From UHGV virus genome UHGV-1764124: a stretch of DNA of 15,323 nucleotides; one strand, written 5' to 3'. Below are positions 1 to 49 of the stretch, one piece after another. A program made the position numbers and the translations under genes. Under the pieces are notes generated by a model. It saw nothing but the letters and a program-made list of their open reading frames with translations. It had not been told where the DNA came from and made no database searches. The stretch is from a virus. The first letter of the stretch is position 1. Every line of letters starts with the position of its first letter.

Positions 1-49
1 ATCTACACACTGCATATCGTCGGCAGCGTCAGATGTGTATAAGAGACAG
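1..49. other. Synthetic Illumina Nextera adapter (P5 tail ATCTACAC, 8-nt i5 index ACTGCATA, TCGTCGGCAGCGTC, Tn5 mosaic end AGATGTGTATAAGAGACAG)
   Basis: Exact match to the Nextera read-1 adapter structure as I know it; the 19-bp mosaic end occupies 31-49. Not biological sequence. Confidence 0.95.

What the first reader, a model, noticed from the sequence alone, without database searches (positions are those of the whole stretch)
1..49. Both contig ends are Nextera adapters with indices; the first and last ORFs are artificially truncated
Positions 1-49 and 15276-15323 reproduce the two ends of a Nextera library molecule, including index sequences ACTGCATA (i5) and CGAGGCTG (i7). From memory these are N506/S506 and N710; I could not verify that. 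The whole window therefore looks like one untrimmed library molecule or assembly artefact. The Met starting the ORF at 35 is adapter-encoded, and the ORF ending at 15275 runs into adapter. Any gene call or homology hit touching these ends is contaminated.
Basis: partly seen in the sequence, partly recalled or inferred. Interest (0 to 1): 0.45.

Follow-up and report, generated by a model that had tools for sequence, protein, structure and literature searches.

The report
Untrimmed Nextera adapters at contig ends
Both ends of this 15.3-kb sequence are synthetic Illumina Nextera adapters left on an assembled contig of an ordinary E. coli phage, so the two end genes are cut short and wrongly called in public databases; this is a laboratory artefact, not biology.

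Summary
Positions 1-49 are the last 49 nt of P5 / i5 index ACTGCATA (N506/S506) / TCGTCGGCAGCGTC / 19-nt mosaic end. Positions 15275-15323 (not 15276) are the first 49 nt of mosaic-end complement / CCGAGCCCACGAGAC / i7 index CGAGGCTG (N710) / ATCTCGT. There are no mismatches and no adapter remnants inside the window.

The window is the complete public record ENA ERZ652652 NODE_793_length_15323_cov_5.334818. That is a SPAdes-style contig with about 5x k-mer coverage, so it is an assembly of untrimmed reads, not one library molecule.

The insert (50-15274) is a collinear piece of an epsilon15/phiV10-like temperate phage (Uetakevirus) with a K1 endosialidase tailspike, 98-99.9% identical to E. 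coli prophages.

The left gene keeps residues 63-194 of a 194-aa helix-turn-helix (HTH) repressor-like protein. The public gene call (2..448) adds 16 adapter-coded residues. The right gene (minus strand) keeps residues 327-600 of a 600-aa virion protein. An in-frame TAA inside the adapter makes it look complete, and it is deposited as a 268-aa protein starting at an internal Met.

The same adapters sit at the ends of more than 120 IMG/VR contigs and in GenBank phage records from unrelated hosts. Biological interest is very low. The only value is as a data-quality flag.

The parts
1..8 (+). Last 8 nt of the Illumina P5 flow-cell sequence (ATCTACAC)
   Evidence: Exact match to the 3' end of AATGATACGGCGACCACCGAGATCTACAC. 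The oligo is printed in PMC5861650 and PMC7589761.
9..16 (+). i5 index ACTGCATA = Nextera N506/S506
   Evidence: The name is verified in PMC7589761 (S506) and PMC5861650 (N506). In other public contigs the same slot holds other 8-mers, all but one of which (TTCTAGCG, one occurrence, one mismatch from S515) match the catalogue i5 list I recalled.
17..30 (+). Nextera Read-1 transposase adapter tail TCGTCGGCAGCGTC
   Evidence: Exact match. The 33-mer TCGTCGGCAGCGTCAGATGTGTATAAGAGACAG is printed together with its Read-2 counterpart and the word Nextera in 1,733 papers.
31..49 (+). Tn5 mosaic end (ME) AGATGTGTATAAGAGACAG, with its 3' CAG abutting the insert
   Evidence: expected by chance 0.01.
50..15274 (.). 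Genuine insert of 15,225 bp: part of an epsilon15/phiV10-like (Uetakevirus) temperate E. coli phage. It runs from the repressor C-terminus through YqaJ-RecT, MT-A70 methylase, integrase, attP (about 5971), the lysis cassette, the K1 endosialidase tailspike and an 824-aa virion protein to the C-terminal half of a 600-aa protein.
   Evidence: Collinear with phiV10 and with the E. coli FDAARGOS_1301 prophage at 94-99% identity. Positions 800-3300 are 99.9% identical and contiguous in CE10 and other chromosomes. Pfam families on the public gene calls are listed.
35..448 (+). Truncated first ORF. Codons 35-49 (VYKRQ) are adapter-coded. Positions 50-445 encode residues 63-194 of a 194-aa two-HTH repressor-like protein (PhiV10p40 homologue), and 446-448 is the stop codon. 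The public gene call is 2..448 (148 aa) with 16 adapter-coded residues.
   Evidence: 131/132 identical to phiV10 from P63; public call; only the second HTH_3 domain remains.
14448..15274 (-). Truncated last ORF: residues 327-600 (plus 2 nt of codon 326) of a 600-aa virion protein (PhiV10p19 homologue). The N-terminal 326 residues are missing.
   Evidence: 267/274 identical to the FDAARGOS_1301 homologue from Q327; the ATG at 15254 is Met333. One search shows the public call 14448..15254 as a 268-aa 'complete' protein.
15282..15284 (-). In-frame TAA supplied by the mosaic end. It closes the last ORF upstream and hides its truncation.
   Evidence: Codon-by-codon read-out.
15275..15293 (+). Reverse complement of the mosaic end, CTGTCTCTTATACACATCT
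15294..15308 (+). Reverse complement of the Nextera Read-2 adapter tail (CCGAGCCCACGAGAC)
15309..15316 (+). i7 index CGAGGCTG = Nextera N710
   Evidence: PMC7589761 Appendix B.
15317..15323 (+). First 7 nt of the P7 complement (ATCTCGT)
   Evidence: The full ATCTCGTATGCCGTCTTCTGCTTG follows the same block in another record.

Best explanation
The window is a short-read assembly contig (ENA ERZ652652, NODE_793) built from Nextera/Tn5-tagmented reads whose adapters were never trimmed. In fragments shorter than the read length, Read 1 runs through the insert into ME'-Read2 tail-i7-P7', and Read 2 runs into ME'-Read1 tail-i5-P5'. At each end of this low-coverage contig the outermost supporting read was such a read-through read, so the assembler extended the contig 49 nt into the adapter. 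The adapters carry no biology. They create a false GTG start and a run of open adapter codons at the left end. They create an in-frame TAA at the right end. As a result both terminal genes of an otherwise ordinary epsilon15/phiV10-like phage segment are truncated and mis-called. Shown: the adapter identity, the identity of the window with an assembled public contig, the phage origin and collinearity of the insert, the exact truncation points, and the contaminated public gene calls. Inferred: the read-through origin, the lack of trimming, coverage gaps as the reason the contig stops there, and what sets the 49-nt length.
For: There is an exact 49-nt match to the Nextera library structure at each end, in the orientation of a library molecule, with a chance expectation of 0.01. 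The index and oligo sequences are verified in print. The window equals the ENA record over the two overlapping stretches fetched, which together cover all 15,323 nt, and the header is NODE_793_length_15323_cov_5.334818. The same adapter block lies within about 120 nt (mostly within 70 nt) of the ends of more than 120 IMG/VR contigs, and all but one of the 8-mers seen in the index slot (TTCTAGCG, seen once, one mismatch from S515) match the catalogue i5 list I recalled. It also occurs in GenBank phage records of Acinetobacter, Paenibacillus, Listeria, Vibrio, Bacillus, Streptococcus and Pseudomonas hosts. Some public contigs carry i5 at both ends or i7 at both ends, which no sequenceable single molecule has, so contig ends acquire adapters independently of each other. 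Reference genomes continue through both junctions: the left junction falls inside a 194-aa gene and the right junction inside a 600-aa gene. The interior is collinear with references and has no internal adapter.
Against: The reads and the assembly log were not available, so read-through and missing trimming are inferred rather than observed. The equal 49/49 retention is not explained by SPAdes default k values (21/33/55, from my own knowledge). Equality by chance is about 6% on the empirical spread.
Confidence: 0.97

Rival explanations
1. The window is one physical tagmented molecule: a 15.2-kb Tn5 fragment amplified with N506 and N710 index primers and read end to end by a long-read or synthetic-long-read method.
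For: The i5 side is at the 5' end and the i7 side at the 3' end, exactly as in a single library molecule. That configuration is expected in half of independently capped contigs anyway.
Against: The public header gives an assembly node number and 5.33x k-mer coverage. Both adapters are cut to exactly 49 nt rather than carrying the full 70- and 66-nt primers. The cut ignores adapter parts (8 nt of P5 against 7 nt of P7), which points to software rather than a molecule end. Other public contigs have i5/i5 or i7/i7 ends.
Confidence: 0.02
2. The 19-bp terminal inverted repeats are the ends of a natural Tn5/IS50-type transposon that carries the phage genes as cargo.
For: There is a perfect 19-bp inverted repeat at the two ends.
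Against: The repeat is the synthetic hyperactive mosaic end, and it is flanked by Illumina sequencing-primer tails, catalogue indices and P5/P7. Its transferred-strand CAG abuts the insert, so the insert is target DNA lying between two transposition events, not cargo. No transposase appears among the Pfam-annotated gene calls. The first and last 9 nt of the insert differ, so there is no target-site duplication. Reference genomes continue uninterrupted at both points.
Confidence: 0.001
3. The contig ends mark real DNA ends, such as phage genome termini or a discrete 15-kb subgenomic or packaged fragment, which then received adapters.
For: There is no direct evidence. The contig does stop at the same place as the adapters.
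Against: Both ends fall inside genes. They map to phiV10 coordinates about 16026 and 32485 of 39104, far from the record's ends. Tn5 inserts internally and does not cap pre-existing ends. At about 5x k-mer coverage, coverage gaps are expected to be frequent (inference).
Confidence: 0.01
4. The contig is an adapter-mediated chimera in which unrelated pieces were joined through shared adapter k-mers.
For: Such joins exist in public records. One example is Paenibacillus phage Pd_22F, 27885-28065.
Against: No internal adapter piece is present at up to 3 mismatches. The whole insert is collinear with phiV10, FDAARGOS_1301 and CE10 prophages. The only differences are module swaps that start and stop at gene boundaries and are themselves contiguous in other genomes.
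Confidence: 0.01

Closest known systems
Illumina Nextera / Nextera XT dual-index library adapters (Tn5 mosaic end + Read1/Read2 tails + i5/i7 + P5/P7), as adapter read-through contamination of assemblies
   Same: Every retained base matches. The order and orientation are those of a library molecule, the indices are the catalogue N506/S506 and N710, and the position at contig ends is the same as in hundreds of other public contigs.
   Different: Nothing differs biologically. Only 49 nt of each adapter (of 70 and 66 nt) are retained.
Escherichia phage phiV10 / Salmonella phage epsilon15 (genus Uetakevirus) and the related K1-type prophages of E. coli CE10, MS20653 and FDAARGOS_1301
   Same: The insert shares gene order and 94-99.9% nucleotide identity over shared modules: repressor, recombination, methylase, integrase, attP, holins, GH19 endolysin, spanin, tailspike and virion proteins.
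   Different: It has a K1 endosialidase tailspike in place of the phiV10 tail fibre and O-acetyltransferase. It has YqaJ + RecT in place of the phiV10 RecE-RecT fusion, and the BRO-N region is absent. All of these variants already exist in sequenced E. coli genomes.
Natural Tn5 / IS50 terminal inverted repeats
   Same: Both have a 19-bp inverted repeat derived from the IS50 end sequences.
   Different: Here the sequence is the synthetic mosaic end, it points toward the insert, it is flanked by sequencing-primer tails, and there is no transposase and no 9-bp duplication.

Membership tests
Illumina Nextera dual-index adapter contamination | The 19-nt mosaic end AGATGTGTATAAGAGACAG directly abuts the insert at both ends in inverted orientation. 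| tested here: met
   Positions 31-49 (+) and 15275-15293 (-), 0 mismatches, chance expectation 0.01.
Illumina Nextera dual-index adapter contamination | The Read-1 tail TCGTCGGCAGCGTC lies outside one mosaic end, and the Read-2 tail GTCTCGTGGGCTCGG (as its complement) lies outside the other. | tested here: met
   Positions 17-30 and 15294-15308, exact. The sequences are as printed in the literature.
Illumina Nextera dual-index adapter contamination | 8-nt catalogue indices sit between the tails and P5/P7. | tested here: met
   ACTGCATA = N506/S506 and CGAGGCTG = N710.
Illumina Nextera dual-index adapter contamination | P5 and P7 flow-cell sequences lie outside the indices. | tested here: met
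   Only 8 nt (ATCTACAC) and 7 nt (ATCTCGT) are retained, and both match. Other public contigs extend the same block into full P5 plus the poly-T linker and into full P7'.
Illumina Nextera dual-index adapter contamination | The same sequence occurs in unrelated organisms and at the ends of records. | tested here: met
   More than 120 IMG/VR contigs carry it, always within about 120 nt (mostly within 70 nt) of an end. GenBank phages of seven unrelated host genera carry it too.
Single sequenceable Illumina library molecule | The insert is short enough for cluster generation (hundreds of bp to about 1.5 kb; my own knowledge) and the sequence derives from one molecule. | tested here: not met
   The insert is 15,225 bp. 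The record header NODE_793_length_15323_cov_5.334818 denotes an assembled node with 5.3x coverage.
Natural Tn5/IS50 composite transposon | Outward-facing natural OE/IE ends, an internal transposase gene, and a 9-bp target duplication outside the ends. | tested here: not met
   The ends are synthetic mosaic ends facing the insert and flanked by primer tails. No transposase family appears on the gene calls. No 9-bp repeat is present. The natural OE/IE sequences are recalled from memory.
Uetakevirus (epsilon15/phiV10-like phage) genome segment (for the insert) | Collinear gene order and high nucleotide identity to phiV10 and related prophages. | tested here: met
   Four collinear blocks at 83-98% identity to phiV10 and three blocks at 98-99% to FDAARGOS_1301. 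The taxonomy of phiV10 is given.

The most novel reading that the evidence does not exclude
The least ordinary reading still open is that the break points are not random coverage gaps. They could mark reproducible features of the phage DNA in the sample, such as strong Tn5 insertion hot spots or recombination or mosaic boundaries in the immunity gene and in the 600-aa virion gene, that fragment assemblies of this phage family at the same places. The only hint is that an unrelated Logan contig also breaks 20 nt from the right junction. Even if true, this would be a minor technical or population-genetic point.
Probability: 0.03. Interest if true: 0.15.

Novelty: not a real feature. Interest (0 to 1): 0.05.

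Why it matters
The finding matters only for data hygiene. The adapters are part of a public ENA record, and their translation has entered public protein collections. One example is a 148-aa 'protein' that begins with 16 adapter-coded residues. Another is a 268-aa 'complete' protein that is really the C-terminal 45% of a 600-aa virion protein. Homology searches, protein clustering, completeness estimates and terminal-repeat or transposon detectors can all be misled by such ends. The two 19-bp inverted repeats, for instance, look like transposon ends. The same contamination is widespread: more than 120 IMG/VR contigs in a capped scan, and several GenBank/RefSeq 'complete' phage genomes that carry adapters internally.

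Tried and rejected
(1) I tested whether the equal 49/49 retention reveals the assembler's k. A scan of IMG/VR with the 49-mer seemed to show a peak at 49, but that scan cannot see anything shorter than 49. A 39-nt pattern showed retention spread over 39-100 with no mode at 49. SPAdes default k values do not include 49. The k = 49 idea is therefore dropped as unproven, and the point stays unexplained.

(2) I looked for the window in IMG/VR by its adapter-plus-index pattern and did not find it. Looking up the adapter-fused partial protein instead found it in ENA. The 137-aa GTG-start version of that protein is not on record.

(3) I searched the literature for ERZ652652 and found nothing. Searches for adapter-coded peptides found only papers printing the string DVYKRQ; judging by their titles several use transposon insertion, but I did not open any of them and none reports database contamination. 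A general search for 'adapter contamination' gave nothing specific.

(4) I rejected a circular molecule cut once by Tn5. The first and last 9 nt differ, and the ends map 16 kb apart in a 39-kb genome.

(5) I first took the contiguous int-attP-lysis order in the FDAARGOS_1301 chromosome as evidence against attP lying at about 5971. It is explained by a tandem prophage duplication in that genome.

Full report
**Observation**

I read both ends of the window and compared them base by base with the canonical Nextera library molecule.

- Window 1-49 is ATCTACAC (the last 8 nt of P5), ACTGCATA, TCGTCGGCAGCGTC and AGATGTGTATAAGAGACAG.
- Window 15275-15323 is CTGTCTCTTATACACATCT, CCGAGCCCACGAGAC, CGAGGCTG and ATCTCGT (the first 7 nt of the P7 complement).
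- Both blocks are exactly 49 nt with no mismatch.
- The mosaic end occurs only at these two places, once on each strand. The shuffles expect 0.01 matches by chance.
- No other adapter fragment occurs inside the window, even allowing 3 mismatches.

Printed oligo tables give S506 = ...ATCTACAC-ACTGCATA and N710 = primer CAGCCTCG / index read CGAGGCTG (PMC7589761 Appendix B). They also give i5_N506 with the Tn5-A tail (PMC5861650). The two 33/34-nt transposase adapter sequences appear together with the word Nextera in 1,733 papers.

**Independent evidence that these sequences are technical**

In the 151 adapter-bearing contig ends tabulated the block ends within 120 nt of the end (mostly within 70 nt).
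- All but one of the 8-mers seen in that slot match the catalogue i5 list I recalled; the exception, TTCTAGCG, occurs once and differs from S515 by one base.
- The exact N506 and N710 49-mers occur in 16 and 8 further stretches.
- In GenBank the two 49-mers, or their constant parts with a different index, occur in phage records from Acinetobacter, Paenibacillus, Listeria, Vibrio, Bacillus, Streptococcus and Pseudomonas hosts.

**Where the window comes from**

Looking up the partial protein encoded from nt 2 to 448 returned exactly one public contig: ENA ERZ652652, NODE_793_length_15323_cov_5.334818. The two stretches fetched from that record overlap and are identical to the window over all 15,323 nt. 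So the adapters are part of the public record.

The header follows the SPAdes naming convention (my own knowledge): node number, length in bp, k-mer coverage. The window is therefore an assembled contig with about 5x k-mer coverage, not one molecule. A 15,225-bp insert is also an order of magnitude longer than a clusterable Illumina fragment.

Public contigs that carry i5 at both ends (for example 3300045988_074274 and 3300021046_000010) or i7 at both ends (3300045988_063374) show that contig ends pick up adapters independently of each other. The window's i5-left / i7-right arrangement is expected in half of such cases.

**What the insert is**

The insert (50-15274) matches E. coli prophages and phages of the epsilon15/phiV10 group (Uetakevirus).

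- It is collinear with phiV10 in four blocks and with the FDAARGOS_1301 prophage in three blocks at 98-99% identity.
- The non-matching modules begin and end at gene boundaries.
- The YqaJ-RecT module with its flanks (800-3300) is 99.9% identical and contiguous in E. coli CE10 and 78 other genomes.
- The public gene calls carry YqaJ, RecT, MT-A70, integrase, DUF2514, GH19, two holin families and a five-domain endosialidase tailspike.

Nothing suggests a chimeric join.

**Consequences for the terminal genes**

*Left end.* Reference genomes have a 194-aa two-HTH repressor-like gene (PhiV10p40). The window resumes at Pro63, and 131 of 132 residues are identical to phiV10. Only the second HTH domain remains. 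The frame is open through the adapter. A mechanical ORF finder therefore starts at the GTG at 35 and adds VYKRQ. The deposited gene call starts at nt 2 and adds STHCISSAASDVYKRQ.

*Right end.* The affected gene is on the minus strand. The reference protein is 600 aa (PhiV10p19 homologue). The window keeps residues 327-600 plus two bases of codon 326, with 267 of 274 residues identical. The mosaic end supplies an in-frame TAA at 15282-15284. The ORF therefore appears closed upstream, and the public call is a 'complete' 268-aa protein from the ATG at 15254, which is really Met333.

**Mechanism**

The best explanation has the following steps (inferred except where marked as shown).

- Tagmentation produced some fragments shorter than the read length.
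- Read 1 then ran into ME'-Read2 tail-i7-P7', and Read 2 ran into ME'-Read1 tail-i5-P5'.
- The reads were assembled untrimmed.
- At about 5x k-mer coverage (shown), gaps are frequent. At both ends of this contig the outermost read was a read-through read.

I rejected four rivals.

- A single long molecule, because of the header, the coverage and the length-based 49-nt cut.
- A natural Tn5-like transposon, because of the primer tails, the inward-facing orientation, the absence of a transposase and the absence of a 9-bp duplication.
- Real DNA termini, because both ends lie inside genes and map far from the ends of the phiV10 record.
- An adapter-mediated chimera, because there is no internal adapter and the insert is collinear with references.

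**Unexplained detail**

Both ends keep exactly 49 adapter bases, although the two adapters are built differently (8 nt of P5 against 7 nt of P7). The cut is therefore by length, not by adapter part.

Retention in other public contigs ranges from 39 to 100 nt, which gives about a 6% chance of equal ends. Yet 4 of 13 double-ended contigs have equal retention. That suggests a per-assembly parameter sets the length. SPAdes default k values do not give 49, and I could not settle the point without the reads.

**Comparison with known things and verdict**

This is a textbook case of Nextera adapter contamination on a contig of an already well-sampled phage type. It is not a genomic feature. Biological interest is very low. 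The practical value is to flag the ENA record and the two derived protein entries.

Noticed in passing
window 4530-6580 (attP about 5971): The contig crosses attP in phage order: integrase 4530-5780(-), attP, spanin 6098-6580(-). In E. coli MS20653 the prophage ends at window 5971 next to yfgI, and in CE10 the two arms lie about 22 kb apart. The sample therefore held excised/circular or virion DNA, or a tandem lysogen.
   Followed up: partly
L171 (NZ_CP070111.1 4846000-4895000): E. coli FDAARGOS_1301 carries this prophage as a tandem duplication. The same WP_ proteins (DUF551, terminase, portal and others) recur 40.6 kb apart. This explains why its chromosome shows the contiguous int-attP-lysis order.
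   Followed up: yes
GenBank MK327946.1/NC_054919.1 76711-76759; MH973725.1 6658-6706; MK170160.1 22686-22734: 'Complete' phage genomes, including a RefSeq record, carry Nextera adapter blocks inside the sequence. In vB_EcoM_G4507 and Pseudomonas phage SaPL it is the identical 49-mer with N710, and in G4507 it lies under an annotated baseplate hub / tail lysozyme gene. Acinetobacter phage TAC1 carries an i5-side block about 90% identical to the window's left 49-mer, not aligned base by base. These are probably misassemblies or insertions of adapter sequence.
   Followed up: no
L172 (MZ092003.1 27885-28065): Paenibacillus phage Pd_22F contains ME'-Read2 tail-i7-full P7'-AAAA-poly-G (about 60 nt)-ATCTACAC-i5-Read1 tail-ME inside its 'complete genome'. 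That is two adapter-ended contigs joined through no-signal poly-G. The i5 side again keeps exactly 49 nt.
   Followed up: partly
window 1-49 and 15275-15323: Adapter retention is exactly 49 nt at both ends. Among public contigs with adapters at both ends, equal retention is over-represented: 4 of 13, against about 6% expected. The cause is unknown.
   Followed up: partly
L170 (Logan SRR33380594_37798) vs window 15254: An unrelated Logan contig starts exactly at the internal ATG (window 15254), 20 nt from the window's native right end. It encodes the same 268 residues. This may be coincidence or a recurrent graph break point.
   Followed up: no
window 8202-11321 (-) and 1053-2984 (+): There are module swaps relative to phiV10. 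A 1039-aa K1 endosialidase tailspike replaces the O157-type tail fibre, and the O-acetyltransferase is absent. Separate YqaJ and RecT genes replace the RecE-RecT fusion. The YqaJ-RecT module is about 78% identical to prophage-like regions on Klebsiella plasmids.
   Followed up: partly
window 3-224 (-): A 73-aa mechanical ORF on the minus strand ends inside the left adapter. It is spurious and partly adapter-coded.
   Followed up: no
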